Part shown: piece by piece, positions 47,929 to 61,894 of the stretch | Layout of the letters: each line of letters starts with the position of its first letter | Numbering within the stretch: position 1 is the first letter of the stretch | Assembly (NCBI GenBank): GCA_043797705.1 | Contig: JAZDPJ010000002.1 | Coordinates: forward strand, 20,833-84,832 | Direction of reading: 5' to 3' | Origin: an archaeon | Lineage (GTDB): Archaea; Nanobdellota; Nanobdellia; SCGC-AAA011-G17; GW2011-AR17 | Length of the DNA: 64,000 nt | The notes under the pieces: model-generated | What the model saw: only the letters and a program-made list of their open reading frames with translations | Databases searched by the model: none | Told to the model about the DNA's origin: nothing | Translations under genes and position numbers: made by a program

Positions 47929-47970
47929 GGTATTACAAGTATTTTTTGCACTTTTTACTTATAAGCTTTT

Positions 47971-48405: not shown

Positions 48406-48414
48406 ATGTTTATC

Positions 48415-48621
48415 CTATTTATTTTTGGTTTTTAACGGTTTCGTCTTCTTGCTTATTTCTATTGCTTCGCTTGTTATTGCTCTTAGTAGTATGTTGACTC
48501 CTGCGAGTATCCATATTTGCATTTTTTGGCTGAGTGGCAGTCCTAGTCCTGGGATTGCTATTGCTATTCCTGCTAGTATGTTTATCCAGAAGGTTTTTGA
48601 TTTGAATATTGTTTTTGTCAT
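48415..48621 (-). CDS. Small membrane protein (2 TM)
   Basis: 68-aa hydrophobic ORF. Confidence 0.3.
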   Translation of the reverse strand: MTKTIFKSKTFWINILAGIAIAIPGLGLPLSQKMQIWILAGVNILLRAITSEAIEISKKTKPLKTKNK

Positions 48622-48705
48622 GGTATTTTATGTGTATAAACAGGTATTTAAATTTGTTTATGTTCGGGAAATGTTTATATAGCAGCTAATTATATATTTT
48701 TTATT

Positions 48706-49137
48706 ATGAGAACTTTCAAGATTGTGACGGCGTCTGTGTTGTTCATTTTTGCTTCTTTGTTCATTTTTGGTTCTCAGGCTCCTATGACTGGTGCTGTTGT
48801 TGGTGTTGCTGGTAGCGGTTCTTTGTCTATTTTTGGTTTTGTTGTTGCTTTGGTTTCTGGTATTATTTTTGCTTCTGGTTTGGAGGAGAGGGTTAATGAT
48901 AATCCTGCTGCTAAACTTTTGAAGGGAGGTACTGTTTACACGAAGAGTAAGGAGTTGGTGAGCCTTGCTAGAGATTGCGGTTATACTCTTGAACCTGGGA
49001 GGAAGGAGGGCACTGTTGTTCTTAAGGAAGGTAAGATTATTGCTGTTATTCCAAATCATAAGTCTCTTAATAAATATACTGCTAAGGGTATTATGAAGGC
49101 ATATGCTAGTGGCGAGTCTTCTTTCAGGAAAAAATAG
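48706..49137 (+). CDS. Hypothetical membrane-anchored protein
   Basis: N-terminal TM pair with Gly-rich stretch, then a soluble C-terminal domain. Confidence 0.35.
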   Translation: MRTFKIVTASVLFIFASLFIFGSQAPMTGAVVGVAGSGSLSIFGFVVALVSGIIFASGLEERVNDNPAAKLLKGGTVYTKSKELVSLARDCGYTLEPGRKEGTVVLKEGKIIAVIPNHKSLNKYTAKGIMKAYASGESSFRKK

Positions 49138-49220
49138 TTTTTTTACGGAATTTTTAGTTAATTACTGTAAGTTGTTAAAATCGCATCCTTAGCTTTATAA
49201 CTTATCATTTATTATAAAAT

Positions 49221-50120
49221 TTGATGAAAATAAGTAATGGACGTTTTAAAAAAGGAAGTATCCCTTGGAATAAGAACTCCATTAGGAAAGTATGTTTAAA
49301 TTGTGGAAAAGAATTTTTCATTTCTAAAAGTAGGAATCTAGAAGGGAGGGGTAAATTTGATTCAATAAAATGTAAGAAGGGATATAAGTATAAGCTTGCT
49401 AAAGAATTTTTCATTAATGGAGATATGGCAGAACTTATAGGGATTATTATTGGGGATGGTTGCATCAGTAGGGTACGCAATCGGAATGATTATAGGATTC
49501 AAATTTCAGGTAATAAAATTGAAGATAAGTTCTATATGGAAGATTATTTACCAAGCTTGGTATTTAGATGTTTAAAAATAAAGTCTAAACCCTTTTTGGC
49601 AAAGAACGGTGCGTTGATATTGCAATTTCAATCTGAACCATTTAGAATCTTTTTACATTCGTTAGGTATATGTTCACCAAAAGCTAAGACTGTTTGCATA
49701 CCGGAGATTATCAAATCTAATAGATGTCATTTAAAGAGGTGTATAAGGGGTATAGCTGATACGGATTTTACTTTGATATTTACTAAACGGAAAAAAGCGG
49801 GTTTGAATTATTACCCAAGGATTTGTGCACAATTTGCTTCAGAGTCATTAGTTAAGGATTTGGAGACAAGCTTACATATAATGGGATTTACTTTAAATGT
49901 TAAGTATAATTATTTAAGAAATGATAAACGCGGTTTTAAGTACACAACAAATTTTATAAACTTAGACGGCCCAATTAATTTAAATAGATGGATAGATTTA
50001 ATTGGCTTTTCAAATATGAGAATAAAGACAAGGTATCAAGTATGGCAAGAATACAAACATCTAAAACCAAAATCGACTATCTCAGAAAGAATAGCTCTAT
50101 TAGAGGGCGCAAGGGGGTGA
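49221..50120 (+). CDS. Free-standing LAGLIDADG-family homing endonuclease with N-terminal CxxC zinc-finger-like region
   Basis: Two LAGLIDADG-type motifs, LIGIIIGDGCI and CIRGIADTDFTL, about 100 aa apart. Codon style is A-rich, unlike its T/G-rich plus-strand neighbours. Confidence 0.6.
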   Translation: MMKISNGRFKKGSIPWNKNSIRKVCLNCGKEFFISKSRNLEGRGKFDSIKCKKGYKYKLAKEFFINGDMAELIGIIIGDGCISRVRNRNDYRIQISGNKIEDKFYMEDYLPSLVFRCLKIKSKPFLAKNGALILQFQSEPFRIFLHSLGICSPKAKTVCIPEIIKSNRCHLKRCIRGIADTDFTLIFTKRKKAGLNYYPRICAQFASESLVKDLETSLHIMGFTLNVKYNYLRNDKRGFKYTTNFINLDGPINLNRWIDLIGFSNMRIKTRYQVWQEYKHLKPKSTISERIALLEGARG

Positions 50121-50150
50121 GGGGTATATGGGCGGCAATATTTTAGTTTT

Positions 50151-50765
50151 TTGTGCCCATTCGTAGCGGACGATGAGGCCGTTGGGATGGCGGGTACTAT
50201 TGCTAAGTATGTGAAAGAAGGAAAAAATGTAATCAAGGTTGTTTTCAGTTATGGTGAATCTTCTCATCCTCATTTTCAGGAGAGGATAGTTAAGAAGAAC
50301 AGGCTTAAGGAGACTGATAAGGCAAGTAGTTTTCTTGGGATAAAGGAGACTATGTTTTTGGGTATGCGTGATACTAAGGTTACTGAGGATATTTCTAAGA
50401 ATGGTATTGCTAGGGTTGTTACAATTATTAAGAAGTATAACCCTGAAAAAATTTATATCCCTTCTGCGCAGGATCCTCATCCGGATCATCAGGCTGTTCA
50501 TGCTGCGGTTTTGGAGGCTGTGGACGCTTCAAAAAGGGGTTATCATGTTTTTGCTTATGAGGTTTGGAATTTGATGAAAGAGCAGCAGCCGTTCCTTTAT
50601 ATGGATATTACTCCTTATTTCAAGAAGAAGCTTGAATATATTCGCTTTTTCAAGAGCCAATGGCAGTACATGTATGCGTTGTGGCTGCCGGTGCATGTTC
50701 GTTCGATGTTGTATGGTTATAGGGAGGGTTGCAGGTATGCTGAGAGGTTTTATAAGATAAGATGA
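50151..50765 (+). CDS. PIG-L/LmbE-family N-acetylglucosaminyl deacetylase (5' end apparently frameshifted)
   Basis: ...DDEAVGMAGTIAKYVKEG... and HPDHQAVH motifs. The canonical N-terminus MGGNILVFCAHS is in another frame (50128-50166), so the ORF as drawn uses a TTG start. Confidence 0.55.
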   Translation: MCPFVADDEAVGMAGTIAKYVKEGKNVIKVVFSYGESSHPHFQERIVKKNRLKETDKASSFLGIKETMFLGMRDTKVTEDISKNGIARVVTIIKKYNPEKIYIPSAQDPHPDHQAVHAAVLEAVDASKRGYHVFAYEVWNLMKEQQPFLYMDITPYFKKKLEYIRFFKSQWQYMYALWLPVHVRSMLYGYREGCRYAERFYKIR

Positions 50766-51877
50766 GAGTGCTTTTTTTTGTTACTGGTGTTGGGTATGGG
50801 GATGCTACTAGGGAGCATGCCCATATTGAGGCTTTGTTGAAGAGGGAGCCTAAGACTAAGATTATGATTGCTGCTTATCAGAATTCTTATGAGTATTTTA
50901 AGGGTAAGTTTCCGGTTTTTAAGATTCGTGGTTATAATATTAAGGATGTGGCTATGAAGTTCAAGGTTATTCCTTTTATTTTCAATAATATGGTTCTTCC
51001 TTTTTTTTGGATTTCTACTGCTATTAGTATGAGGAAGCAGATTAAGAAGTTTAATCCTGATTTGATTGTTTCTGATTTTGAGCCTGCGGGTATTACTGCT
51101 GCTAAGATTACTGGCAGAAAGTGTATTATGGTTTTTGGTTATGATCCTAAGACTAGGAAGGAGTATTCGAAGAAGAATAAGCTGAGCAAGAAGTGTTGGT
51201 TGGAGGCTAAGTATTTTGAGAGTTTGTATGACAGGGCGGATTTTGTTGTTATCCCTACTTTGTTTGGTGTGAAGGGGCAGAGTGTTTTGTATCATTATGT
51301 GAATCCTGTTGTTAGGAAGATGCCTTCTGATTTGCCTGATAGTAAGAAGTTGATGAAGAAGTGGGGTTTGAGGAGGGCTCCTGTTGTTGTTATGCTTGGG
51401 GGTTCTGATTTTGGTTTGAAGCTTGCTAGGAATTTGCAGAGGGCTGCTCATAGGTTTGATGAGGATTTTCTTGTTTTTGGTTCTAGTCAGCAGTTGAAGT
51501 CAAGCAAGAATTTTAGGCATATTCGTTTTAGTGATAGCTTCTTGGATTACTTGAAGGTTTCTAAGGGAGTTATTACTCTTGGTGGTCAGAAGATGCTTAC
51601 TGAGGCTCTCGCTTTCAAGAAGCCTTTGCTTGTTTTTCCTGTTGAGAATCATGTTGAGCAGTTGATGAATGCTTATAGTATTCGTAAGGTTGCTATTGTT
51701 GGAACTAATACTAATCAGAGGGAGTTTGAGAGGCAGTTGAGGAAGTTTTTGAGGAATTTGCCTGATTTGCAGAGAAGGATGGACAAGTTGGATATTGAGT
51801 TTGATGGTGCTGGGCAGATGGCTAAGCTGTTGATTGATCTTAAGAAGAATCCTTTAGGATTGAAAGCCATGCGTTAG
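50762..51877 (+). CDS. Glycosyltransferase (MurG/GT28- or GT1-like, UDP-sugar dependent)
   Basis: N-terminal MRVLFFVTGVGYGDATREHA and a C-terminal nucleotide-sugar-binding-like region (VVMLGGSDFG). Start overlaps the LmbE stop by 4 nt. Confidence 0.55.
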   Translation: MRVLFFVTGVGYGDATREHAHIEALLKREPKTKIMIAAYQNSYEYFKGKFPVFKIRGYNIKDVAMKFKVIPFIFNNMVLPFFWISTAISMRKQIKKFNPDLIVSDFEPAGITAAKITGRKCIMVFGYDPKTRKEYSKKNKLSKKCWLEAKYFESLYDRADFVVIPTLFGVKGQSVLYHYVNPVVRKMPSDLPDSKKLMKKWGLRRAPVVVMLGGSDFGLKLARNLQRAAHRFDEDFLVFGSSQQLKSSKNFRHIRFSDSFLDYLKVSKGVITLGGQKMLTEALAFKKPLLVFPVENHVEQLMNAYSIRKVAIVGTNTNQREFERQLRKFLRNLPDLQRRMDKLDIEFDGAGQMAKLLIDLKKNPLGLKAMR

Positions 51878-52700
51878 GGTTTTTTCTTTTCATTATTGCG
51901 TCGATAGAATACACTGCTATGTTTTTGAATCCTTTTGATTGTGCGTATTTCATGTCTGTTGCTAATTCTTTTGTGTTGTTATAGTGGGGTTCGTTTCCGA
52001 ATATTCCGGAGTGTATGAGTCCTACTGAGCACATTTTTGCTTTTCTTTTTAGGGCTATGCGGAAGTTCCACCATCTTAGCAGACTTCTGAAGTGTAATAG
52101 TGATGTGTAGCACATTATGTTTTTGTTGTGTGTAGGATAATAGCAGCCCCAGTTTTTCAACATAAACTTTGGTAGTGGGAACTCGTTTATTAGTACATCG
52201 TTATTTTGTGATATTTCTTTTATTGTTTTTAATAGATACTTGCTGTTTTTTCCTTTCTTGAATGCTATTCCGAGTATGTATTTGAGAACTCCTAGGTTGG
52301 AGTATTTGTATTTTGGTAGAGGGGGTTCTAAGTCTATTTTGAGTTTTGTTTTTTTGAACTCCAATAATCTGTCTATGCAGTATCTGCTTGTGAATCCTGA
52401 GAACCAGTATCCTTCAGCTTTTGTGAGCACTGGCCACGCATTCACTTCTGAAATGTTTTTGCATGCTTTCTTTATTTCCCTTACCCACCAGTTATAATTA
52501 GAATAGCTTGTGCAGGCAACATAGATCTCTGGTTTGTAGTTGATTTCTTTCAGTAGTTTGTCTAGTTTTTTCCAGTCTACTTTGTGTGGAAATTCGCACC
52601 AGAGTATTATTCTTTCAAACATATCTATAGAGATAGTGGGGGTATATAAATAAGATTCTGTTTTTTTACAAAATCTTTTTAAATTGCATCTAATTACCAT
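51840..52700 (-). CDS. Hypothetical protein
   Basis: 286 aa, Cys/Trp/Tyr-rich, no motif. Confidence 0.35.
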   Translation of the reverse strand: MVIRCNLKRFCKKTESYLYTPTISIDMFERIILWCEFPHKVDWKKLDKLLKEINYKPEIYVACTSYSNYNWWVREIKKACKNISEVNAWPVLTKAEGYWFSGFTSRYCIDRLLEFKKTKLKIDLEPPLPKYKYSNLGVLKYILGIAFKKGKNSKYLLKTIKEISQNNDVLINEFPLPKFMLKNWGCYYPTHNKNIMCYTSLLHFRSLLRWWNFRIALKRKAKMCSVGLIHSGIFGNEPHYNNTKELATDMKYAQSKGFKNIAVYSIDAIMKRKNPNAWLSILKDSS

Positions 52701-52711
52701 ATCTGATAAAA

Positions 52712-53755
52712 GTGGACGAAGCGCAAAAAGAGGGTTCTAAGCTGGAAAAGATGCTATTTTCAGCAGGTAGGATTACAAAGAAAGGTTTGAGAGCTGGATT
52801 GATATGTAGTGTCCTATTTGGTAATGTCTTTGGGTTATTTAATTTGTATGCAAAATGGGTGTATCAAGTAAAGACTAATTATGGTGTTGTAATTACGCAG
52901 GCTGATGGTGAGAGGGTTGCTATCACAGAGTCAGGATGGCATATGCGGATACCTTTACTTTCAACGTATGAGAATGATAGAGAGCAATATGCTCTGGCGA
53001 ATCAAGTATTATTTTTGGATGGAAAGACTGATATGCATGAGGTTATCGCAAGGGATGAGGTTACTATGGCGGCGGCGGTAACATATTATGAGATAACGGA
53101 TTTGCGTCAATACGCTATAGAGAATGTTAAGGCAGAAATGAGAACATTTGAAGAGACCGAGATGATGCGGGGGGTAACAAAATTTTCTATGACTCCTAGG
53201 GGTATGCTCCAGAAAAAACTTGACTCTATAATAGGCACCAATATCCAAAAAACAGAGCAGGAGGATCTGATTCATAACAGGGGTAAGGTTGAAGATAAGA
53301 TCTTTCAGGATTTACTTGATTCTGATATCTCTAAGAGATTTGGAATAAAATTCAACGGTTTCAATTTTTCTAATACTAGCTATATGCCTGATGTTGTGAA
53401 GGCTAATGCGGAAAAACAAACCTTGCGGGCTATTGCAGAAGGGAAAAATGCTGCGGCAGAGGTGGAGAGGAAAACAATAGAGGTATTGGCGAAAGCTGAT
53501 GCGAATAAGATAGAGATTTTGGCTGAGGCTGATGCTAATAAAATAAAGATATTGGCGAAAGCTGATGCAAATAAATATTATATCCTTGAGAAGGCATTGA
53601 ATCCGCAGACTCCTGAGGAGAAAAAACATGTACAAGACATATTCAGAGCTTTAGTGAAATACAAGACAATTCAAGAAAAAGCTGGTAGTACTGTCTGGGT
53701 AGTTCCAGATTCAGCCAGCCCAATTCCTACATATAACCCCGGATCATTGAAATAA
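52712..53755 (+). CDS. SPFH/band-7 (stomatin/HflK/C/flotillin-like) membrane protein
   Basis: N-terminal TM, SPFH core, and C-terminal repeats ILAKADANKIEILAEADANKIKILAKADANK typical of flotillin/HflC-like tails. Confidence 0.7.
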   Translation: MDEAQKEGSKLEKMLFSAGRITKKGLRAGLICSVLFGNVFGLFNLYAKWVYQVKTNYGVVITQADGERVAITESGWHMRIPLLSTYENDREQYALANQVLFLDGKTDMHEVIARDEVTMAAAVTYYEITDLRQYAIENVKAEMRTFEETEMMRGVTKFSMTPRGMLQKKLDSIIGTNIQKTEQEDLIHNRGKVEDKIFQDLLDSDISKRFGIKFNGFNFSNTSYMPDVVKANAEKQTLRAIAEGKNAAAEVERKTIEVLAKADANKIEILAEADANKIKILAKADANKYYILEKALNPQTPEEKKHVQDIFRALVKYKTIQEKAGSTVWVVPDSASPIPTYNPGSLK

Positions 53756-53757
53756 TC

Positions 53758-56700
53758 ATGCCCATTCACAAGACTCAAGAGCCAATTACTGTAATATTAG
53801 AGAAAGATAGGAAACTTTTATTGGATGAGTTAGCTGATTCTTGGTCTATGGACCATAAAAAGTTTATTCTGCAGTCTTTGAGAAAGTATGCTCCTTCAGT
53901 GATAAAGCCTACAAAAACTAATCTTGATAGTATGCGGGACTTATTGTTTGGTAAGGATAAGAAGGTGGATAAGAGGGAGATCTTGCATCTTGCAAACCCG
54001 GAGATTTTTAAAAACCCTTCGGAGAGGTATAAGATTACTGGGGAGAAGGATCCTACAAAGGCATTGCATAGGATATTTGATGAGGAGATAACTTCAAATG
54101 ATCGGACTTATCTTATTCATTTACTTGACAAGGAGACAGATGATGTTTTTATCCCTCCAGAATTGATAGAAGAGTTTGCGATAGGTCACAGGAGGCATCA
54201 TCAGAATCTTCTTCTTGAGGAAAGAGCTCCTAAGGCTCCTTTTTATCTTTTTCTTGGACCGACTGGTTCTGGGAAAACAAAGACTGTTAATAGGGCAATT
54301 GAGCGTGCATTGTTTAATCAGGAGTTGGAGATAAAGTATAAGGTGGATGAGGACCTTGAGGGGATTATTGAGAGGCATCCTATCATGGCTAGGATTGATT
54401 TGGCTGCAGTTGCCCCTGAGGCTGCTGAGCGTATTGGGAAGGAAAAGCGTAGGAAGAAGTTAAAGTTTTTTTCTACGATTCCGATACTTAAGGATTTTTA
54501 CAAAGAAGAGACAGCAGAGGTGTTAAAGGAAGAGAAAAAAGAGTTTGGAATGTCTATTGATAAGGACCAGATTAATCCGAATAATGTTCAGACAATGTGG
54601 TATGGTGAGACTGGTAACAAGATGATGACTTCATTTGGGTCAAAGGGAGCTATTAGTATAAGGGTGTTGGAGGAGGCGCATGCTTTATTGCGTGTCCATG
54701 AGAGCCGTAGTGCGCAAGTGCAGGAAGATACTTTGGTGTCTACATTTAACATAATTATGGATGAGATAGAAAAGGGTGAACGGAATTGTATGGTTGTTGC
54801 ATTGACTAGGAGGGGTGAAGAGTTTCATGAGGATATTTTTAGACGTTTTCAGGAGAAGGGAAGGATCATTGATATGAGCGACTATTGGAAGAATCCTGAA
54901 ACTATCGAGGAGCTTATCAAGATAGAGGTGAAACAGCAGGATGTTGAGATGCCGGGGGATGTTGAACGTAAGGATCTTGCAAATAAGGTGTTGCAGATAT
55001 TTGAGTATCGTGATTTGGATTTGACGCCTGCGTATGTGCGGAAGCTTTTGGCGTCTATTATTGAGGAGAAGAAACAGTTGCTGAATGAATACTTGGATGA
55101 TGGGGTTCTTGTGCGGCGGGCGTTTGTGAATGTTGCGAGAAATCTTTATCCTGAAATGTTCAAAAAGACGTATAATAAAATGGTGAGGAATGTTGAGTGG
55201 GGTGATTATGTTGGGGATATTAAGGAAGAATTCCAGCGTTCGGCAAATCAGCGTCTTATTCATAACTTATCAACAGAAAAAGGAGTTATATTGGCTGGGC
55301 CTCCTGGATCTGGAAAAACATTTCTTGCAAGGGCTTATCTTTCACGTAACAAGGATATTGCGGATATAACTCTTAGTATTGAGGATTTGCAGGATGATAG
55401 GGATCCTATAGACGGGCCTGTTAGGAAATTGGCTGAGTCGATTGACATAGCGAAGATGTGTGCTCCGAGTGTGTACTTTGTTGATGAGGGGGATACTATT
55501 GCTATGGAGCGTCAGGGTAATTCGATACAGGATAGGATTCCGAATAAGCTTCTTAATGCTATTTCTGGTGAGAATGAGATTAAGGGGGTATTTTTTGCAT
55601 TGACAACGAATAATCCTGAGCGTCTTGCAGAGGCGGCTAAAAGGTCGGGTAGGTTGAGGGTGATGACAATAACTGGAAAGCTTACTGAGCGTGATATCTA
55701 TAAGTTGTTGGGTAATTATTTGAAAGGGGAGGTTGTTTCACCTGAGATAAGTGAGCAGAGGGTTTATTCTATTGCTAGGAAGATTTGTTCTACGCCTGCT
55801 GATTATAGTGCGTTTTTTGAGACTATTGTTAATTTTAAGAATGAGGAGCGTGAGATTATTAAGTTTGCTTCTAAAACTGAAGAGAGGGGTCTTGATGATT
55901 TTATAATTTCTAATTATAAGGCTTTGATAGGGATTGTTGAGAGTCTTGGTTTTTCGTCGGGTTTTGTGAATGATGCGAGGAGGGATATTTCTTTTCTTAT
56001 TAATAATAAGGATGTGTTAATGGTGAAGGTTAGGGAGGCAGTTGAAAAAAATGACTACCCGATAACTATTGCTCATCTGGATAGGGCGCATAATGATAGG
56101 ATGCAGGCGCCTAGGTTGAAGGGTAAGATTAGTTTGGATGATTATCTTGAGAGTCAGCTTTCTTCAGAGCCTCAGGTGGGTATGGTGATTGGTGCTGGGG
56201 CATCTGATACAAGTGGTTTGTTGGTGCCTATAAGGTCGTCTATTATTTATGATGGGGATAACTTGAATGAGAAGACTGTTGTTACAGGGGCTGTTCCTGT
56301 TAATGCTCCGCAGGCCGCAGAATTGAATGCTGCTGTTGAGATGGTGAAGCAGTCAGCTAAGGAGGCTTTGACACTTGTGTTGAATTATTTGGATTCTTTG
56401 TTTCTTGAGAAGGATGTAAAACGTGTTATTGGTACTTATTTGAAGAACAGGCATTTTCATCATCAGTTCCTTACAGCGCAGTATATGAGTGGGGGGCCTA
56501 GTGCGGGTATGGCTTTGGCGATAAATACTTTGTCTTCTATATTGGAGCTTCCGGTGAGGCATGATTTTGGGATTACTGGTGCTCCTTGGAGTGGTGGCAA
56601 GACTAAGAAGGATACTGGTTCTGCTGTTATTATTGGTGGTGCGGATAATAAGTCTCAGATTGTTTTGAGTTATCTTAATAGGATGTATATTCCTGTGCAA

Positions 56701-57054
56701 AATATGAAGGACATAAATCTTTTGACTCTTGAGGGTTTTTGGAAAAATGGGAAGGATATTGTTGGTTATGAGAATTTTCCGTCAATTATTGGTGAGGTGT
56801 ATTGTCTGGATAATTTAGTGACAAATTCGGCTGAGGAACTATTTGAGAAACGTATTGAGGCAAAGAGGCTTGATCTTGTTGCTGTGGATGATGCGAGGGT
56901 GTTGTTCAGTGAGGTTGATGCTCTTAGTGCGATATTAAGAAAAAATGCTGAGAAGGTTATAACCGATCGTGTAGGCTGTATAGAGAGATATATTCGTGAT
57001 GGTAATGCTGATGAGTTTATGAGTTTGGAGGGTATTTTTAAAAAGTATAATTAA
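53758..57054 (+). CDS. Large ATP-dependent protease-like protein: two AAA+ modules plus a C-terminal Lon (S16) protease domain
   Basis: Walker A FLGPTGSGKT (module 1). Module 2 has ILAGPPGSGKTF, Walker B VYFVDEGD and sensor ALTTNNPERL. The C-terminal Lon domain has the Ser motif GGPSAGMA and a Lys (VIIGGADNK) at the spacing of the E. coli Lon S679/K722 dyad. Starts 3 nt after the SPFH gene. Confidence 0.7.
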   Translation: MPIHKTQEPITVILEKDRKLLLDELADSWSMDHKKFILQSLRKYAPSVIKPTKTNLDSMRDLLFGKDKKVDKREILHLANPEIFKNPSERYKITGEKDPTKALHRIFDEEITSNDRTYLIHLLDKETDDVFIPPELIEEFAIGHRRHHQNLLLEERAPKAPFYLFLGPTGSGKTKTVNRAIERALFNQELEIKYKVDEDLEGIIERHPIMARIDLAAVAPEAAERIGKEKRRKKLKFFSTIPILKDFYKEETAEVLKEEKKEFGMSIDKDQINPNNVQTMWYGETGNKMMTSFGSKGAISIRVLEEAHALLRVHESRSAQVQEDTLVSTFNIIMDEIEKGERNCMVVALTRRGEEFHEDIFRRFQEKGRIIDMSDYWKNPETIEELIKIEVKQQDVEMPGDVERKDLANKVLQIFEYRDLDLTPAYVRKLLASIIEEKKQLLNEYLDDGVLVRRAFVNVARNLYPEMFKKTYNKMVRNVEWGDYVGDIKEEFQRSANQRLIHNLSTEKGVILAGPPGSGKTFLARAYLSRNKDIADITLSIEDLQDDRDPIDGPVRKLAESIDIAKMCAPSVYFVDEGDTIAMERQGNSIQDRIPNKLLNAISGENEIKGVFFALTTNNPERLAEAAKRSGRLRVMTITGKLTERDIYKLLGNYLKGEVVSPEISEQRVYSIARKICSTPADYSAFFETIVNFKNEEREIIKFASKTEERGLDDFIISNYKALIGIVESLGFSSGFVNDARRDISFLINNKDVLMVKVREAVEKNDYPITIAHLDRAHNDRMQAPRLKGKISLDDYLESQLSSEPQVGMVIGAGASDTSGLLVPIRSSIIYDGDNLNEKTVVTGAVPVNAPQAAELNAAVEMVKQSAKEALTLVLNYLDSLFLEKDVKRVIGTYLKNRHFHHQFLTAQYMSGGPSAGMALAINTLSSILELPVRHDFGITGAPWSGGKTKKDTGSAVIIGGADNKSQIVLSYLNRMYIPVQNMKDINLLTLEGFWKNGKDIVGYENFPSIIGEVYCLDNLVTNSAEELFEKRIEAKRLDLVAVDDARVLFSEVDALSAILRKNAEKVITDRVGCIERYIRDGNADEFMSLEGIFKKYN

Positions 57055-57057
57055 AAC

Positions 57058-57411
57058 TTATTTCTTTTTTTTCTTGTATATGTAGATGAATGCTATTGCC
57101 ATTACTGTTATGTTTATTAGCATGAAGTATCCGTTTCCCCAGCTCGTTCCGGGGAATTTCCATTCTGATATTGGCCAGAGGAATGGTGTTGGGAGGAATT
57201 CTCTTGTGTGGGTGAAGAGATCCATTGTTATTGCTACTGGCCAGGCTAGCATGTACCAATGTATTTTTTTTAGGTATAGGCTGATAAGTATTATTGCTAT
57301 TGCTGCGAGTATTAGGCTGTGGCTTACATTGTATAGTGTGAACACCCATTCCGGCATATTCGTTAGGTGTGGCTCTCCGAATTCTCGTATGAATAGCAGG
57401 TTGTAGAACAT
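57058..57411 (-). CDS. Small membrane protein (start uncertain; in-frame upstream extension lacks a start codon)
   Basis: Three TM segments. The upstream in-frame sequence WIKKPWKAVAFGLLPDTASWAVY also looks protein-like. Confidence 0.3.
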   Translation of the reverse strand: MFYNLLFIREFGEPHLTNMPEWVFTLYNVSHSLILAAIAIILISLYLKKIHWYMLAWPVAITMDLFTHTREFLPTPFLWPISEWKFPGTSWGNGYFMLINITVMAIAFIYIYKKKKK

Positions 57412-57558
57412 ATAGACTGCCCAGGATGCTGTGTCTGGTAGAAGCCCGAAAGCTACTGCTTTCCATGGTTTTTTTATCCAGTGAAAAAGTATATAGCTTC
57501 AGATTCCGTGTGAAAAATAGTCCATATCCTATCAGGAGGTCTTTTTTTGTATAAATAC

Positions 57559-58020
57559 TTAGTGGATTGTGTCTGCTACTGCTGCGCTCATTGATGCTGG
57601 GAATGTTACTAGTGCTACTCTTTTTAATGCGAGCAGGCTGTCTGTTGCCCATGGTGTTTTTTGTATGAGTGTCAAAATAATCGCTACTACTATGAATGAC
57701 AGCACATAGGTTAGTGCTGTTCTTTTGAAGTATCCTTCCCATGTTTCTTTGATTTTTTCTTTGTGGTAGTTGTAATATACGAATATTGATATGAATAAGA
57801 TGGATAATGCTACGAATCCGAGGACATTTGCGAGGGGTAGTGTTTCTGCTAGCTTCCAGGACTCTTCTGTGAACCCAACAGGTATTGCTAGTATTGATGC
57901 TCCGATTATTACTTGTAAGACATCTTTGAGGTGGAACTCTGTCCTGAGCGGGGACAATAGTTTTACCAGTGCTTTGCCGGTTTGGTCTACTATGATTACC
58001 TCTCTATGTTTTTTCAGCAT
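57559..58020 (-). CDS. Hypothetical membrane protein (4 TM)
   Basis: 153-aa hydrophobic ORF. Confidence 0.35.
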   Translation of the reverse strand: MLKKHREVIIVDQTGKALVKLLSPLRTEFHLKDVLQVIIGASILAIPVGFTEESWKLAETLPLANVLGFVALSILFISIFVYYNYHKEKIKETWEGYFKRTALTYVLSFIVVAIILTLIQKTPWATDSLLALKRVALVTFPASMSAAVADTIH

Positions 58021-58071
58021 GCTATTATTATAGTGTTTGTTATTTTTATTCTTTTGGTTTTAGAAGTTTAG

Positions 58072-58146
58072 CGGACCTGATGGGATTTGAACCCACGACC
58101 TACTGCTTAGGAGGCAGTCGCGCTATCCAGTCTGCGCTACAGGTCC
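58072..58146 (-). tRNA. tRNA-Arg (anticodon CCU)
   Basis: 75-nt cloverleaf: GGACCTG acceptor, D-arm GCGC-AGACTGGATA-GCGC, anticodon arm ACTGC-CTCCTAA-GCAGT (CCU), T-arm GTGGG-TTCAAAT-CCCAT. Confidence 0.8.
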
Positions 58147-58184
58147 ATTAGCTAATCTAATTCAGGAATTCTTTATAAAATTAC

Positions 58185-58946
58185 TTATTTTATCTCGTAT
58201 ACTACTGTTACTGTTGCTGTTATGTCTAGTGTTTGTGGTTCTATGTTTGTTGTTGCTACTTTTGCTTCTGCTACATCTTCCATGACTGCTAGCCCTATTC
58301 CTCTGTATATTGGGTAGGGTGTCCAGCCGAAGTCTGATGATGATACGCTGACTAGGTCTCCTAGTTCTTTTCCTAGTCCGGAGGTTATTGATTCTGCTTT
58401 CATTTTTGCGTCTTGTGATGCTTGTGCTAGTACCATTGCTTTGTATTCGTTTTCTTGTTTGTTTGATAGTTCAAAGTTAATAGAACTAATCAATGCTCCT
58501 TCGTCTGCTCCTGCGTCTATTATTTTTCCTATGATTTCAAAGTTTTCTGTGCTTACTTTGATGTTGTTGGATGCTACGAATCCTTTTGATGTTCTTTCTC
58601 CTTCTTTCCAGTCAAAGTCTTCGTAGATGTTGAAGTTTTGTGTTTCTATGTCTCCTTTTCCTATGCCTATTGTGTCTAGATTTTTAAGAACTGCATCCAT
58701 GATTTTTGTGTTCTCGTTTTTTGCTTGGTCTGCTGAGTCTGCTTTGGTTTCTACATTGAGGTATACTACTGCTTCATCAGGCATTACTGTCATTTCTGCG
58801 TCCCCTACTGATTGTATTGTCTCGCCAGTTAGGCTTCCTCCGAACATTGAGCTTAGAAGCCAGATTCCGGTTAAGATTCCTAGGACAATTATTGTTGATA
58901 CTATGATCGGTGTTGCGTTTAATTTTTTAATCATTATCTTATTCAA
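58185..58946 (-). CDS. SIMPL/DUF541-family secreted protein
   Basis: N-terminal TM/signal anchor. The size and overall sequence pattern resemble the 26-kDa periplasmic immunogenic-protein family. Confidence 0.55.
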   Translation of the reverse strand: MNKIMIKKLNATPIIVSTIIVLGILTGIWLLSSMFGGSLTGETIQSVGDAEMTVMPDEAVVYLNVETKADSADQAKNENTKIMDAVLKNLDTIGIGKGDIETQNFNIYEDFDWKEGERTSKGFVASNNIKVSTENFEIIGKIIDAGADEGALISSINFELSNKQENEYKAMVLAQASQDAKMKAESITSGLGKELGDLVSVSSSDFGWTPYPIYRGIGLAVMEDVAEAKVATTNIEPQTLDITATVTVVYEIK

Positions 58947-59015
58947 TTGCTTTAGTGATATTTAAATATTTCCAACTGAAAAACTATTTAAGTGAACCAT
59001 TCCTTTATGTAGTGT

Positions 59016-61574
59016 ATGCACAGTTATAGTGTAAAAGAGGTTATGAAGAATCTGAAGACTTCTGAGAAGGGTCTTAAGTCTAGTGAGATTGCTAATCGTT
59101 TCAAGAAGTATGGTCGGAATGAGATTAAGAAGAAGGATAGTATTAATGCTTTTAGGATTCTTCTTTCACAATTTACGGATCCTATTATTTATGTTTTGAT
59201 TGCTGCGGTTATTCTTTCTGCGGTTGTGCATGAGACCACTAATGCAATTGTTATTGGTGCTATCATTTTGCTTAACGCGGCTTTCGGGTTTGTGCAGGAG
59301 TACAAGGCAGAGAAAGCTATAGAGCTTTTGAAGAAGTTTGAGACAGTTAGGACGAGGGTTATTCGGAATGGTATGGAGCAGGAGGTTGATGCTGTTGAGC
59401 TTGTTCCTGGTGATATCATTGTTATTAATGCAGGTGATAAGATTCCTGCTGATGCTAGATTGATTTGGAATCTTAATCTTAAGACTAATGAGGCTGTTCT
59501 CACTGGTGAGTCTGAGCCTGTGAATAAGACAGTGAATGTTTTGCCTCCTAAGACTCCTTTGGCTGATAGAGTTAATATGGTTTTTGCTGGTACGATTGCT
59601 GTTGATGGCCGTGCTAAGGCTGTTGTTATTGCGACTAATGAGTATACTGAGATAGGTAAGATTGCTAAATTAGTAAAAGAGACTGTGGATGCTCCTACCC
59701 CTTTGCAAAATAGATTGAAAGAGCTTGGAAAGTGGATTACTATTTTCTCTATCGTGGCTGCGGCGATTATTATACCTGTTGGGTTATTTAGGAATCTTCT
59801 TTTTTATGATGTTTTCATGCAGACTATTAGTCTTGCTGTGTCTGCGATTCCTGTAGGTTTGCCTGCTGTTGTCACTATTTGTCTTGCTCTTGGTGTGAGG
59901 CGTATGATTAAGCGTAAGGCTATTATTAAGAGGTTGAAGTCTGTGGAGACTCTTGGTAGTGTTACTGTTATTTGTTCTGATAAGACGGGCACTATAACTA
60001 AGAATGAGATGACTGTTACTGACATTTTTGCTAATGATAAACTGATAAAGGTTACTGGTTCTGGTTATAAGACTAAAGGAGATTTTCTCGTTAATGGCCG
60101 AAAGGTAAGTGCAAAGAATATTGAGCTTCTTTTGCGTGCTTCTTCTTCTTGTAATAATGCTACTTTGAAGGTTGGTGATCCCACTGAGATTGCTTTGTTG
60201 GTTGCTGCTGAGAAGGCTGATGTGAAGCGAGATGAGAATCGTTTGGATGAGGTGCCCTTTAGTTCTGAGAAGAAGTATATGTTGACTAGGCATGTTGGTG
60301 TTATTTATGTTAAGGGTGCTTTGGAGAAGGTTCTCAGTATGTGTAATTTTATCATTATTGATGGTAAGAAGAGAAGATTGATTAAGAGGGATGTTGAGAA
60401 GATTATGAAGGTTAATGAGGATATGGCTGATAGGGCTTTGAGGGTTTTGGCTGTTGCTTCTGGTAAGTCTGAGAAGGATCTTGCGTTTCTTGGTTTGATT
60501 GGTATGATTGATCCTCCTAGATCAGAGGTTAAGGATGCAATTAAGCTTTGTAGGCTCGCTGGTATAAGGCCTATTATTATTACTGGAGATCAAAAATTAA
60601 CCGCCCTGGCAGTTGCAAAGGGTATTGGTATTGATAGTGGGGCTTTGGTTGGTGATGAGATTGATAAGTTGAGTGATGATAAGTTGAAGAAGGTTGTTAA
60701 GGAGGTTTCTATTTTTTGCAGGACTACTTCTGAGCATAAGGTCAGGATTTTGAACGCATTGCAGGAGAATGGTGAGGTTGTTGCTATGACTGGTGATGGT
60801 GTGAATGATGCTCCTGCTTTGAAGAAGGCTGATGTTGGTGTGGCTATGAATATCAAGGGTACTGATGTTAGTAAGGAGGTTGCTGATATTGTTCTTGTTG
60901 ATGATAATTTTGCTAGTATTGTTAGTGCTGTGAAAGAAGGCAGGGGTATTTATGATAATATTAAGAAGTTCATCAAGTTTCAGTTGTCTGCTAATTTTGA
61001 TGAGATTGCTTTGGTTTTGACTGCTATTTTTTTTGGTCTTCCTTTGCCTTTGTTGCCTATTCATATTTTGTGGATTAATTTTGTTACTGATAGTTTTCCT
61101 GCGTTGGCTTTGGGTGTTGATCCTCCTGAGAGGGATATCATGTCTCGAAAGCCTAGGCCTCCTAAAGAAGGTATTCTTAAGGGTGTTTGGGGTTTCTTGG
61201 TAATAGCAACTATCCTTGCTTTTGTAATCTCGATAGTTACTTTTTTGGTGGGTTTGAAGACTGGTAGTATTGAGCGTGCTAGGACTCTTACTCTTACTGC
61301 TGCTATTGTTGTTGAGATGTTTATTGCCTTTGCTGCTAGGACTGATAAGAGTGTGTTTAAGGTTAGTCCTTTTGAGAATAAGTGGTTGTTGGGAGCAGTG
61401 TTTTTGGCTCTTGCTTTGCATTTCACAGTGGTTTATTCGCCTTTGAACATACCGTTCGGGTTGGTGCCTTTGACTTTTCTAGAAGTGTTAGCAATCTTCG
61501 GAGCTTCTGCTTTGGTGTTCGTTATTTTTGAGTCTACAAAATTATTAAAAGAAATAAAAAAATCAAAGGTTTAG
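59016..61574 (+). CDS. P-type cation-transporting ATPase (Ca2+/Mg2+ type, P2)
   Basis: Phosphorylation site CSDKTGTIT, hinge MTGDGVNDAPALKKADVGVAM, and a 10-TM layout. Confidence 0.9.
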   Translation: MHSYSVKEVMKNLKTSEKGLKSSEIANRFKKYGRNEIKKKDSINAFRILLSQFTDPIIYVLIAAVILSAVVHETTNAIVIGAIILLNAAFGFVQEYKAEKAIELLKKFETVRTRVIRNGMEQEVDAVELVPGDIIVINAGDKIPADARLIWNLNLKTNEAVLTGESEPVNKTVNVLPPKTPLADRVNMVFAGTIAVDGRAKAVVIATNEYTEIGKIAKLVKETVDAPTPLQNRLKELGKWITIFSIVAAAIIIPVGLFRNLLFYDVFMQTISLAVSAIPVGLPAVVTICLALGVRRMIKRKAIIKRLKSVETLGSVTVICSDKTGTITKNEMTVTDIFANDKLIKVTGSGYKTKGDFLVNGRKVSAKNIELLLRASSSCNNATLKVGDPTEIALLVAAEKADVKRDENRLDEVPFSSEKKYMLTRHVGVIYVKGALEKVLSMCNFIIIDGKKRRLIKRDVEKIMKVNEDMADRALRVLAVASGKSEKDLAFLGLIGMIDPPRSEVKDAIKLCRLAGIRPIIITGDQKLTALAVAKGIGIDSGALVGDEIDKLSDDKLKKVVKEVSIFCRTTSEHKVRILNALQENGEVVAMTGDGVNDAPALKKADVGVAMNIKGTDVSKEVADIVLVDDNFASIVSAVKEGRGIYDNIKKFIKFQLSANFDEIALVLTAIFFGLPLPLLPIHILWINFVTDSFPALALGVDPPERDIMSRKPRPPKEGILKGVWGFLVIATILAFVISIVTFLVGLKTGSIERARTLTLTAAIVVEMFIAFAARTDKSVFKVSPFENKWLLGAVFLALALHFTVVYSPLNIPFGLVPLTFLEVLAIFGASALVFVIFESTKLLKEIKKSKV

Positions 61575-61799: not shown

Positions 61800-61894
61800 T
61801 TTAGGATTTCAGTAGCTTGTAGGTATAAATAGTTTGTGATGCTCGGGAATATTTTTGCGCAAGATATATAAACGCAGTATTATTACTAGGTTGC

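What the first reader, a model, noticed from the sequence alone, without database searches (positions are those of the whole stretch)
52712..57054. SPFH/band-7 protein translationally coupled to a two-AAA+-module Lon-protease-domain protein (HflKC/FtsH-like pairing with a Lon catalytic domain)
The SPFH protein ends 3 nt before a 1098-aa ORF. That ORF has an N-terminal region of unknown function, a divergent AAA+ module (GPTGSGKT), a classical AAA module (GPPGSGKTF, hhhhDEGD, sensor-1 TNNPE) and a C-terminal Lon S16 domain with both catalytic dyad residues (GPSAG Ser; Lys in IIGGADNK at canonical spacing).

SPFH proteins classically scaffold and regulate membrane AAA proteases (HflK/C-FtsH) or pair with NfeD/STOPP proteases in archaea. 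Here the partner is instead a soluble-looking tandem-AAA Lon-like enzyme. Archaeal LonB has one AAA+ module and TM helices; BrxL-like Lon proteins belong to BREX loci, and no BREX genes are seen here.

This could be a distinct regulated-proteolysis or defence-associated module.
Basis: partly seen in the sequence, partly recalled or inferred. Interest (0 to 1): 0.65.

Follow-up and report, generated by a model that had tools for sequence, protein, structure and literature searches.

The report
SPFH-partnered Cdc48–Lon fusion protease operon
This archaeal window carries a two-gene operon, also found in about 340 bacterial and archaeal species, that pairs a membrane scaffold protein (SPFH) with an undescribed ATP-driven protease built from a Cdc48-type double motor fused to a Lon peptidase, probably a new way of degrading proteins at the membrane.

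Summary
ORF 52712..53755 is an SPFH/Band_7 protein with one N-terminal membrane helix. Two bases later, ORF 53758..57054 encodes a soluble 1098-aa protein. It has an unassigned N-domain, two classical AAA modules that fold like Cdc48/p97 D1-D2, a helical linker, a Lon S16 peptidase domain and a C-terminal helical hairpin.

Across 88 family members, every ATPase and peptidase catalytic residue examined is invariant.

The pairing is not accidental. The SPFH gene lies immediately upstream on the same strand in 85 of 85 related loci with room to see it. These come from DPANN archaea and Desulfobacterota, including cultured species. No other neighbour is conserved, and the two proteins' divergences track each other (r = 0.92).

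Flanks are housekeeping genes. There were no defence-model hits beyond generic AAA, and no full-length copies on plasmids, phages or viral contigs.

Best reading: a chromosomal, membrane-associated, ATP-dependent proteolysis module analogous to HflK/C-FtsH, but with a Cdc48-Lon chimera that fits neither LonA, LonB, LonC nor BrxL. No description was found in the literature searched.

Charge bias suggests the SPFH domain lies outside the cell while the protease is cytoplasmic, so how they contact each other is unresolved. Function is inferred, not shown.

The parts
52676..52685 (+). TATA-like element (TTTTTAAAT) about 27-35 nt upstream of the SPFH GTG; possible archaeal promoter for the pair
   Evidence: Read directly from the sequence. 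Inference only; no promoter tool covers archaea.
52712..53755 (+). SPFH/Band_7 membrane scaffold gene (347 aa, GTG start)
   Evidence: Pfam Band_7 E 9.9e-10. The family profile's best PDB hits are QmcA 8z5g (E 2.7e-8) and P. horikoshii stomatin (E 2.2e-6). The N-terminal extension from the GTG matches the family consensus.
52784..52852 (+). Single N-terminal transmembrane helix of the SPFH protein (aa 25-47), preceded by a conserved basic tail
   Evidence: Kyte-Doolittle maximum 1.61 in the window protein. The family median is 2.24. The 15-aa flanks hold 5.15 K+R on the N side against 3.06 on the C side, with 78/85 loci more basic on the N side.
52877..53467 (+). SPFH (Band_7) domain, aa 56-252
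   Evidence: all 13 aligned partners match Band_7.
53486..53587 (+). Coiled-coil segment with three tandem 10-11-residue units (LAKADANKIEI / LAEADANKIKI / LAKADANKYYI), two more than most homologues
   Evidence: Alignment A2; coordinates.
53758..57054 (+). 1098-aa soluble Cdc48-like tandem-AAA / Lon peptidase fusion gene
   Evidence: There are 29 near-full-length homologues at 37-73% identity.
53758..54207 (+). N-terminal domain (aa 1-150), family-specific, fold unassigned. It starts strand-helix-helix, and its best PDB profile hits are CopG-type RHH proteins at non-significant E 0.04-0.07
   Evidence: No Pfam family. PDB profile search. Secondary structure of the model.
54208..55167 (+). AAA module D1 (aa 151-470): Walker A GPTGSGKT 54256..54279; helical insertion aa 194-262 (54337..54543); pore loop TMWYGETG 54592..54615; Walker B IRVLEE 54658..54675; RR 54841..54846
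   Evidence: K173, E306, R362 and R363 are invariant in 88 sequences. Foldseek aligns D1-D2 to Cdc48/p97/Rix7 over about 500-750 columns. The insertion is conserved.
55168..55857 (+). AAA module D2 (aa 471-700): Walker A GPPGSGKT 55297..55320; Walker B VYFVDE 55471..55488; sensor-1 N618 55609..55611; arginine fingers RSGR 55642..55653
   Evidence: PF00004 E 4e-25. PDB phmmer: VAT/Cdc48/p97 D2 at E ~1e-26. K520, E577, N618, R629 and R632 are invariant in 88 sequences. The pore-loop position lacks an aromatic residue (PIDG).
55858..56157 (+). Helical linker domain between D2 and the peptidase (aa 701-800), no family assignment
   Evidence: Model secondary structure; no Pfam hit; conserved in the family.
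56158..56802 (+). Lon S16 proteolytic domain (aa 801-1015): catalytic Ser915 in GGPSAG 56491..56508; catalytic Lys965 in IGGADNK 56632..56652
   Evidence: Profile vs PDB hits only Lon P-domains, 1XHK E 1.3e-8. Foldseek top 50 are all Lon proteolytic domains. S915 and K965 are invariant in 88 sequences and align with the LonB dyad.
56803..57051 (+). C-terminal helical hairpin and conserved terminal helix (aa 1016-1098; ...SLEGIFKKYN)
   Evidence: Model; conserved in the family; no Pfam family.
57060..57076 (+). T-rich run (TTTCTTTTTTTTCTT) just after the stop codon; possible archaeal terminator ending the two-gene unit
   Evidence: Read directly from the sequence; inference.

Best explanation
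The locus is a conserved two-gene operon for a membrane-associated, ATP-dependent proteolysis machine.

Gene 1 encodes a single-pass SPFH protein of the stomatin/QmcA type. By analogy with solved SPFH assemblies, it should form a ring or cage on the membrane.

Gene 2 encodes a soluble protease that should, like Cdc48 and Lon, form a hexamer. An N-terminal recognition domain sits on two stacked classical AAA rings (Cdc48-like D1 and D2). These rings unfold and thread substrates into a covalently attached Lon Ser-Lys peptidase chamber.

The SPFH partner most likely recruits or gates this enzyme at a membrane patch. Membrane or membrane-proximal proteins could then be extracted and degraded there. 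This is functionally analogous to HflK/C-FtsH and prohibitin/m-AAA.

Shown here:
- the domain identities;
- the intact catalytic residues of all three enzymatic modules;
- the strict conservation and co-inheritance of the pair;
- its chromosomal housekeeping context.

Inferred, not shown: oligomeric states, physical interaction, substrates, and which side of the membrane the SPFH domain faces.
For: Anatomy:
- Band_7.
- D1-D2 superpose on Cdc48/p97/Rix7, Foldseek E ~5e-18 over about 500-750 columns.
- NCBIfam CDC48 is the best AAA model.
- D2 matches VAT/Cdc48 at E ~1e-26.
- The C-terminal domain is a Lon P-domain by profile and by fold.

Activity-competent: K173, E306 and R362/R363 (D1), K520, E577, N618 and R629/R632 (D2), and S915 and K965 (Lon) are invariant in 88 sequences. 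The D1 pore loop is TMWYGE in the window's Woesearchaeota clade and TALAGE in most bacteria, the two Cdc48/p97 pore-loop types.

Pairing:
- The SPFH gene lies immediately upstream on the same strand in 85/85 loci with room.
- It is also present next to a 33%-identical outlier.
- 79/84 gaps are overlaps or 30 nt or less.
- No other neighbour is conserved across the set.
- SPFH and protease pairwise identities correlate at r = 0.92, with 0/500 permutations reaching that value.

Context:
- Flanks are housekeeping genes.
- No full-length relatives were found in viral contigs, phages or plasmids.

Membrane link: the SPFH protein has a strong, conserved TM helix, and the protease has none.
Against: - No direct evidence of interaction. 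No complex prediction or experiment was possible.
- The positive-inside rule places the SPFH N-tail in the cytoplasm and the SPFH domain outside. The protease has no TM helix or signal peptide. Contact would therefore have to go through the short basic N-tail or the TM helix, which has no precedent.
- The D2 pore loop lacks the canonical aromatic residue, so D2 may not grip substrate.
- Model confidence is low around the Lon active site (pLDDT <50 at aa 907-914 and 941-968).
- A distant AAA-AAA-Lon_C protein (P0095) has no SPFH neighbour. The architecture can therefore work without SPFH.
Confidence: 0.62

Rival explanations
1. The SPFH protein is the substrate rather than the scaffold or regulator. 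The Cdc48-Lon enzyme would grab its cytoplasmic N-terminal tail, extract it from the membrane and degrade or trim it. SPFH cages would thereby be dismantled or remodelled. This parallels the archaeal stomatin-specific protease STOPP/PH1510, which cleaves its operon partner stomatin PH1511.
For: - There is an operon precedent for a Ser-Lys protease acting on its SPFH partner (PMC3795559; general knowledge of PH1510/PH1511).
- The SPFH N-tail is basic and conserved, and probably cytoplasmic.
- Cdc48-type motors extract membrane proteins (established knowledge).
- The tight co-inheritance fits an enzyme with a dedicated substrate equally well.
Against: A 1098-aa double-ring unfoldase is heavy machinery for a single dedicated substrate. 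Known SPFH/AAA-protease pairs (HflK/C-FtsH, prohibitin/m-AAA) are scaffold-enzyme relations. Nothing tested here separates the two readings, and they are not mutually exclusive.
Confidence: 0.2
2. The pair is an anti-phage or abortive-infection module. A membrane SPFH sensor would activate a Lon-type effector protease.
For: - Distribution is patchy: about 344 of 185,579 species genomes.
- There has been apparent inter-domain transfer between DPANN archaea and Desulfobacterota.
- Lon-like proteases occur in BREX and type III CRISPR systems (PMC7261183; bioRxiv 10.1101/2021.12.06.471393).
- There are weak PADLOC hits to AAA components (mad8, IetA, TRIP13).
Against: - The PADLOC hits cover only P-loop/AAA stretches, and the SPFH protein hits nothing.
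- Neighbours are housekeeping genes. Within Desulfobacterales they are syntenic (tRNA methyltransferase, alpha/beta hydrolase, CinA), which indicates vertical inheritance.
- Bacterial sequences form one clade.
- No copies were found in IMG/VR, phage or plasmid collections.
- No defence genes were seen nearby: Pfam of the window's neighbours (apart from one weak, sub-threshold HicA-toxin hit) and the recorded Pfam annotations of six related loci.
Confidence: 0.06
3. The protein is an ATP-driven remodeller or disaggregase whose Lon-like domain is structural, as in RadA/Sms, and not proteolytic.
For: Lon-fold domains without protease activity exist, for example RadA/Sms (general knowledge; PMC11612176 discusses RadA). 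The model is poorly confident at the active-site loops.
Against: Ser915 within GGPSAG and Lys965 are invariant in 88 sequences spanning archaea and bacteria. They align with the catalytic dyad of solved Lon domains.
Confidence: 0.05
4. The adjacency of the SPFH gene and the protease gene is a chance feature of this locus.
For: None after testing.
Against: 85/85 loci carry the pair. An outlier member does too. The pair is the only conserved neighbourhood element.
Confidence: 0.01

Closest known systems
HflK/C-FtsH (bacteria) and prohibitin/m-AAA protease (mitochondria)
   Same: A membrane SPFH protein is genetically or physically coupled to a hexameric classical-clade AAA protease. The SPFH protein has an N-terminal TM helix with a basic cytoplasmic side, the HflK/C-like topology suggested.
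   Different: - The protease domain is Lon S16 (Ser-Lys), not the M41 zinc peptidase.
- There are two AAA rings instead of one.
- The protease has no TM helices or extracytoplasmic domain.
- There is a single SPFH gene, not an HflK+HflC pair.
- The HflC equivalog model scores 18.6 bits against a 134.4-bit cut-off.
- By sequence the SPFH protein is nearer to QmcA/stomatin.
Stomatin-NfeD/STOPP operons (P. horikoshii PH1511-PH1510; E. coli QmcA-YbbJ)
   Same: A stomatin/QmcA-type SPFH protein in a two-gene operon with a Ser-Lys protease. Best PDB sequence matches of the SPFH profile are QmcA and PH stomatin.
   Different: - The partner has no NfeD domain and no ClpP-fold protease.
- It is ATP-dependent, soluble and about four times larger.
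- Gene order here is SPFH first.
Cdc48/VAT/p97 type II AAA unfoldases
   Same: A tandem D1-D2 of classical AAA modules. The model superposes on Cdc48/p97/Rix7. The D1 pore loops are of the Cdc48/p97 types. CDC48 is the best NCBIfam match.
   Different: - No double-psi-barrel N-domain.
- The CDC48 model scores 66.9 bits against an 802.65-bit cut-off.
- D1 has a ~70-aa insertion.
- The D2 pore loop lacks an aromatic residue.
- The peptidase is fused in cis instead of the motor docking onto a separate 20S proteasome.
Lon proteases LonA, LonB, LonC
   Same: A C-terminal S16 proteolytic domain with the catalytic Ser-Lys dyad. The best fold and sequence matches are the M. jannaschii, A. fulgidus and T. 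onnurineus LonB and LonA P-domains. The motor and peptidase sit in one polypeptide.
   Different: - The motor is two classical-clade AAA modules rather than one Lon-type AAA+ module.
- There is no LON N-domain (LonA) and no membrane anchor inside the ATPase (LonB).
- The ATPase motifs are intact (unlike LonC).
- The Ser motif GGPSAG is neither PKDGPSA nor (E/D)GDSA(S/T) (motifs from PMC2605481).
- AAA-AAA-Lon_C is absent from the Lon architectures listed in that survey.
P0095-type AAA-AAA-Lon_C proteins (metagenomic, 1027 aa)
   Same: The same overall order, two PF00004 modules followed by Lon_C. It shares 28% identity with the window protein over D2 and Lon.
   Different: It has no SPFH neighbour and a different N-terminal region. 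Only one such representative surfaced among 1.84 billion representative proteins.

Membership tests
Lon (MEROPS S16) peptidase domain | Lon proteolytic-domain fold | tested here: met
   In the Foldseek search of the aa 770-1098 model, the top 50 hits are all Lon proteolytic domains (isolated or within full-length Lon). 1XHK: E 4.4e-9, TM 0.70 normalised by target. The profile search against PDB sequences hits only Lon P-domains.
Lon (MEROPS S16) peptidase domain | Catalytic Ser-Lys dyad | tested here: met
   S915 and K965 align with the dyad of M. jannaschii and A. fulgidus LonB. Both are invariant in 88 sequences.
LonA | N-terminal LON substrate-binding domain plus a single Lon-type AAA+ module; Ser motif PKDGPSA | tested here: not met
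   No LON-domain hit appears among the 25 families shown for the whole protein, and scans of the N-terminal 150 residues alone find no LON domain. There are two classical AAA modules of Cdc48 type. The motif is GGPSAG: GPSA is kept and PKD is absent (motif definition from PMC2605481).
LonB | Transmembrane anchor inserted between Walker A and B of the single AAA+ module; Ser motif (E/D)GDSA(S/T) | tested here: not met
   No hydrophobic window exceeds Kyte-Doolittle 1.6 in the 1098-aa protein. The D1 insertion at the equivalent place is helical and charged, not hydrophobic. The motif is GGPSAG.
LonC | Degenerate, ATPase-inactive AAA-like module | tested here: not met
   The Walker A Lys, Walker B Glu and arginine fingers of both modules, and the sensor-1 Asn of D2, are invariant.
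BrxL / BREX | Lon-like protein embedded in a BREX locus (PglX/BrxX methyltransferase, BrxA/B/C, PglZ) | tested here: not met
   There is no BrxL hit in PADLOC. Neighbours are GT, PIG-L, SIMPL, P-type ATPase, methyltransferases of the UbiE type, tRNAs and aIF5B. None of the related loci whose neighbours were inspected show BREX genes.
Cdc48/VAT/p97 | Tandem classical AAA D1-D2 | tested here: met
   Foldseek against Cdc48, p97 and Rix7 gives E ~5e-18 over about 500-750 columns. The NCBIfam CDC48 match spans aa 271-636.
Cdc48/VAT/p97 | Double-psi-barrel/beta-clam N-domain and full-length match to the CDC48 family model | tested here: not met
   There is no CDC48_N or CDC48_2 hit. TIGR01243 scores 66.9 bits against a cut-off of 802.65.
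HflK/C-FtsH system | HflK and HflC paralogues; membrane-spanning FtsH with M41 metalloprotease | tested here: not met
   There is a single SPFH gene. HflC TIGR01932 scores 18.6 bits against 134.4. The partner has no Peptidase_M41 domain and no TM helix.
SPFH superfamily | Band_7/SPFH domain with an N-terminal membrane anchor and a C-terminal coiled coil | tested here: met
   Band_7 is found in 13/13 partners, best E 1.1e-20. The TM helix has a median Kyte-Doolittle score of 2.24. The C-terminal region aligns with the coiled-coil region of HflC/QmcA.
SPFH superfamily | Assembly into a multimeric ring or cage | not testable with these tools
   No multimer prediction is available. The ring or cage is inferred from solved QmcA, stomatin and HflK/C assemblies.
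Stomatin-NfeD/STOPP operon | Adjacent NfeD-domain protein (with or without a ClpP-fold protease) | tested here: not met
   There is no NfeD among the neighbours. No third conserved gene appears across 87 loci.

The most novel reading that the evidence does not exclude
This would be a previously unrecognised class of energy-dependent protease: a Cdc48-type double-ring unfoldase fused in cis to a Lon peptidase.

It would work across the membrane with an extracytoplasmic SPFH cage. The cage corrals a membrane patch from outside. Its ring of conserved basic N-terminal tails docks the soluble hexamer underneath. The hexamer then pulls membrane proteins out of the bilayer and degrades them.

That would be a prokaryotic, ubiquitin-independent counterpart of Cdc48-driven membrane-protein dislocation. 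It appears to have been exchanged between DPANN archaea and Desulfobacterota.
Probability: 0.25. Interest if true: 0.8.

Novelty: new variant of a known kind. Interest (0 to 1): 0.62.

Why it matters
All characterised Lon proteases use one Lon-type AAA+ ring. All characterised Cdc48-type motors hand substrates to a separate peptidase, the 20S proteasome. A natural Cdc48-Lon chimera with every catalytic residue conserved would add a new architecture to the short list of ATP-dependent proteases.

Its obligate SPFH partner extends the SPFH/AAA-protease theme (HflK/C-FtsH, prohibitin/m-AAA, stomatin-STOPP) to a third peptidase chemistry and to DPANN archaea.

The apparent topological separation, with the SPFH domain outside and a soluble protease inside, poses a concrete and testable question about how SPFH scaffolds talk to their proteases.

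The family occurs in cultured Desulfobacterota: Desulfosarcina variabilis, Desulfosediminicola flagellatus and Geothermobacter hydrogeniphilus. Biochemistry and cryo-EM are therefore feasible.

Tried and rejected
- **Defence reading.** PADLOC gave only P-loop-level hits for the protease and none for the SPFH protein. Scans of IMG/VR, phage genomes and plasmids found no full-length relative. Rejected as the main reading.
- **Third conserved gene.** All-against-all clustering of ORFs in 87 loci found only lineage-restricted synteny: an alpha/beta hydrolase upstream in 25 loci and CinA downstream in 21. The remaining recurrent clusters were shadow ORFs.
- **N-domain identity.** Pfam on single sequences and on 12 members gave nothing consistent. 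The PDB profile search gave CopG RHH proteins at E 0.04-0.07 only. This remains a lead, not a result.
- **Literature.** Nine full-text searches on SPFH, Lon, AAA+, Cdc48, fusion, Woesearchaeota, NfeD and Desulfobacter terms found no description of the pair or of the architecture. The reviews and surveys read do not list it.
- **AFDB fold search.** The library was unavailable.
- **First protein search.** The word-indexed search suggested only about 34 homologues. The genome scan showed this was an underestimate, with 344 species.
- **Full-length structure model.** It was too uncertain in the peptidase region, so the C-terminal 329 residues were modelled separately.

Full report
**1. Observation**

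- ORF 52712..53755 (+, GTG, 347 aa) translates to a protein with one N-terminal hydrophobic helix (aa 25-47). It carries a Band_7/SPFH domain (Pfam E 9.9e-10, aa 56-252).
- Its TAA stop is followed by two bases and then the ATG of ORF 53758..57054 (+, 1098 aa).
- NCBI's call for this protein (P0001, 1068 aa) starts 30 codons later. Residues 1-30 are conserved in the family, with L25 and W29 invariant, so the long ORF and the 2-nt spacing stand.
- The GTG start of the SPFH gene is likewise supported. The extra N-terminal residues match the consensus of its homologues.

**2. The large protein**

Pfam finds PF00004 AAA (E 4e-25, two stretches). Lon_C is just above its gathering score, 21.2 against 21.1 bits.

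*ATPase region.*
- NCBIfam's best model is the CDC48 subfamily, aa 271-636, far below its cut-off.
- PDB sequence search puts D2 nearest to VAT, Cdc48 and p97 D2 at E ~1e-26.
- An AlphaFold2 model from a 29-sequence alignment has mean pLDDT 77.5. It aligns to Cdc48, p97 and Rix7 chains over about 500-750 columns at E ~5e-18.
- The ATPase part is therefore a type II, Cdc48-like D1-D2 tandem, not one good and one 'divergent AAA+' module.

*D1 details.*
- D1 carries a conserved ~70-residue helical insertion between Walker A and strand beta-2 (aa 194-262).
- Its Walker B is hhhhEE.

*Peptidase region.*
- The marginal Lon call was tested three ways.
- The single sequence hits the M. jannaschii Lon P-domain (1XHK, E 1.6e-5), with Ser915 and Lys965 aligned to the catalytic dyad.
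- A family profile hits only Lon P-domains (1XHK 1.3e-8; A. fulgidus about 3e-6; T. onnurineus, B. subtilis, E. coli and human Lon below that).
- A separate model of aa 770-1098 has Lon proteolytic domains as all top 50 Foldseek hits.
- The Lon fold is therefore confirmed.

*Other regions.*
- The N-terminal 150 residues, the linker (aa 701-800) and the C-terminal helical hairpin (aa 1016-1098) have no family assignment.
- The N-terminus begins strand-helix-helix. Its profile's best PDB hits are CopG ribbon-helix-helix proteins, at a non-significant E 0.04-0.07.
- No segment is hydrophobic enough for a TM helix.

**3. Is it an active enzyme?**

An alignment of 88 family members (window plus 87 loci) shows these residues invariant:
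- D1: Lys173 (Walker A), Glu306 (Walker B), Arg362/Arg363.
- D2: Lys520, Glu577, sensor-1 Asn618, Arg629/Arg632.
- Peptidase: Ser915 and Lys965.

The D1 pore loop is TMWYGE in the window's Woesearchaeota clade and TALAGE in most bacterial members. From my own knowledge, these resemble the p97 D2 (MWFGE) and D1 (KLAGE) loops respectively.

The D2 pore-loop position reads P-(I/L/V)-(D/E)-G, without an aromatic residue.

This pattern is what an ATP-dependent, substrate-threading protease would show. It argues against a decayed or purely structural Lon domain.

**4. Is the pairing real?**

- Word-indexed protein search found 34 family members (29 near full length, five shorter), in a 61-73% identity clade labelled Woesearchaeota and a ~37-40% clade.
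- Reading six contigs showed a Band_7 gene immediately upstream every time. These included bacterial contigs with sigma-70 and histidine-kinase genes, and archaeal contigs with aIF2-gamma, aIF5B and S6e.
- A scan of one genome per GTDB species found 344 genomes encoding a relative. The best 80 are all full length. They are mostly Desulfobacterales and Desulfuromonadales, plus Woesearchaeota and Nanoarchaeota MAGs. Cultured hosts include Desulfosarcina variabilis, Desulfosediminicola flagellatus and Geothermobacter hydrogeniphilus.
- With a profile of the SPFH partners, the SPFH gene is immediately upstream on the same strand in 85 of 85 loci that have room. The other two loci are cut at the contig end.
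- With inferred start codons, 79 of 84 junctions overlap or are 30 nt or less apart.
- Clustering of all neighbouring ORFs finds no third gene conserved across the set. An alpha/beta hydrolase upstream (25 loci) and CinA downstream (21 loci) are lineage synteny only.
- Pairwise identities of the SPFH proteins and of the proteases correlate at r = 0.92, with 0 of 500 permutations reaching that value. This shows co-inheritance without partner swapping, though it also reflects shared species history.
- A divergent member (P0057, 33% identity) also has an upstream SPFH gene. It is recognisable by profile comparison (hhalign 99.35%, E 6e-21) and Pfam (E 3e-5).
- An exhaustive HMMER search of 1.84 billion representative proteins found only about ten near-full-length 50%-identity clusters and 40 hits at E 1e-30 or better. 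The family is compact.
- One more distant AAA-AAA-Lon_C protein (P0095) has no SPFH neighbour.

**5. The SPFH partner**

- Its family profile is nearest to E. coli QmcA (8z5g, E 2.7e-8) and to archaeal and human stomatins. The HflC equivalog model scores far below its cut-off.
- The TM helix is strongly hydrophobic across the family (median Kyte-Doolittle 2.24). It is itself conserved, with an L-Y-G motif mid-helix in the bacterial members.
- It is preceded by a conserved basic tail: RRAFVKTxLRR in bacteria and SAGRITKKGxRA in the window's clade.
- In the 15 residues on either side there are on average 5.15 K+R on the N side and 3.06 on the C side. The N side is richer in 78 of 85 loci.
- By the positive-inside rule, this suggests an N-in topology with the SPFH domain outside, as in HflK/C. 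That conflicts with a partner lacking any TM helix or signal peptide. I could not run a dedicated topology predictor or a complex prediction, so this is flagged as unresolved.
- Candidate contact surfaces are the SPFH N-tail on one side. On the other are the protease N-domain or the D1 insertion, which sits where LonB carries its membrane anchor and has a basic centre (KEKRRKKLKFFSTIPI). This is inference only.

**6. Context**

- The window is a low-GC (~38%) archaeal chromosome segment. It contains four tRNAs, RuBisCO form III-like, NrdD, ThiI, two Dus genes, radical-SAM enzymes, glycosyltransferases, a P-type ATPase and aIF5B.
- Nothing near the pair is a recognisable defence gene apart from one weak, sub-threshold HicA-toxin hit at 48706..49137. 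PADLOC hits to the protease are P-loop-level only, and the SPFH protein hits nothing.
- There are no full-length relatives in IMG/VR, INPHARED phages or PLSDB plasmids.
- A TATA-like TTTTTAAAT lies about 27-35 nt upstream of the SPFH GTG. A T-run follows the protease stop. This is consistent with a two-gene transcription unit, by inference.
- A crude NJ tree puts all 78 bacterial sequences in one clade and the archaeal ones on three deeper branches. That is compatible with an archaeal origin and one transfer into Desulfobacterota. The tree is not robust enough to assert this.

**7. Mechanism proposed**

*Shown:* a membrane-anchored SPFH protein and a soluble protein with two intact Cdc48-type AAA modules and an intact Lon peptidase are encoded as a tight, co-inherited pair in chromosomal housekeeping contexts.

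*Inferred from established knowledge of the families:*
- The protease forms a hexamer whose stacked D1 and D2 rings thread unfolded polypeptide into a Lon chamber.
- The SPFH protein forms a ring or cage on the membrane, as QmcA, stomatin and HflK/C do.
- The cage recruits or gates the protease so that membrane or membrane-proximal proteins are extracted and degraded, as in HflK/C-FtsH and prohibitin/m-AAA.

I put about 0.6 on this. The main rival, at about 0.2 and not exclusive, is that the SPFH protein is itself the client, as stomatin is for STOPP. Defence, an inactive peptidase and chance adjacency are each unlikely for the reasons above.

**8. Comparison with known systems, and novelty**

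- The protein has a genuine Lon peptidase domain but fails the defining features of LonA, LonB, LonC and BrxL.
  - LonA: LON N-domain, single Lon-type AAA+ module, PKDGPSA motif.
  - LonB: membrane anchor within the ATPase, (E/D)GDSA(S/T) motif.
  - LonC: dead ATPase.
  - BrxL: BREX context.
- It has a Cdc48-like D1-D2 but lacks the Cdc48 N-domain and scores far below the family cut-off.
- A 2008 survey of Lon_C architectures lists none with two AAA modules (PMC2605481).
- Sources name family members only 'AAA family ATPase', 'SpoVK/Ycf46/Vps4 family ATPase', 'transitional endoplasmic reticulum ATPase' or 'hypothetical protein'.
- Nine full-text searches found no description of the enzyme or of the pairing. 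The library lacks most subscription-journal papers, so prior description cannot be excluded.
- I class it as a new variant of a known kind, an SPFH-coupled AAA protease. It has an unprecedented motor/peptidase combination and an open topological question.

**9. Verdict**

The finding is moderately to highly interesting (0.62). Clear experiments are possible in cultured Desulfobacterota.

Noticed in passing
window 11010..14114 (-): A 1034-aa anaerobic ribonucleotide reductase (NrdD, ATP-cone plus NRDD in two stretches). It carries a LAGLIDADG_3 homing-endonuclease domain at aa 483-531, so it probably contains an intein.
   Followed up: no
window 3115..4386 (-): A RuBisCO large-subunit homologue (RuBisCO_large E 2.5e-91), as expected for the form III enzyme of DPANN-type archaea.
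   Followed up: no
window 53486..53587 (+), inside the SPFH gene: The coiled-coil region has three tandem 10-11-residue units (LAKADANKIEI/LAEADANKIKI/LAKADANKYYI). Most homologues have one, and P0039 shares the expansion. This would lengthen the predicted cage wall.
   Followed up: partly
L006 2674..4863 (+), archaeal contig JAIYMQ010000023.1: In one archaeal relative, an FtsH gene (AAA + Peptidase_M41) lies immediately upstream of the SPFH gene on the same strand. The order is FtsH, SPFH, then the Cdc48-Lon fusion.
   Followed up: no
L002, L003, L007 about 4070..4950 (+): In 25 Desulfobacterales loci, an alpha/beta-hydrolase (Peptidase_S9/Hydrolase_4) gene lies just upstream of the SPFH gene on the same strand. 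It is either a lineage-specific third member or plain synteny.
   Followed up: partly
L088 5001..8084 (+), protein P0095: A separate 1027-aa AAA-AAA-Lon_C protein (Lon_C E 2.4e-11) shares 28% identity with the window protein over D2 and Lon. It has no SPFH neighbour, which points to a second, even rarer tandem-AAA Lon lineage.
   Followed up: partly
window 53758..53847 (+): The public annotation (P0001, 1068 aa) starts the protease 30 codons too late. The missing residues are conserved across the family.
   Followed up: yes
window 51840..52700 (-) and 52712 (+): A 286-aa minus-strand ORF with no Pfam family is listed as starting only 11 nt from the SPFH GTG. That leaves almost no divergent intergenic space, so one of the two starts, or the minus-strand ORF itself, may be miscalled.
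   Followed up: no
window 1..64000: There is strong strand compositional asymmetry. GC skew switches sign near 21-22 kb (about -0.3 to +0.2), and AT skew runs from about +0.36 in the first 2 kb to about -0.5 near 42-46 kb, following the direction of the genes.
   Followed up: no
window 48706..49137 (+): A 143-aa ORF gives a weak HicA-toxin hit (E 2.8e-4, below the gathering score) about 3.5 kb upstream of the pair. It is the only toxin-antitoxin-like signal in the neighbourhood.
   Followed up: no
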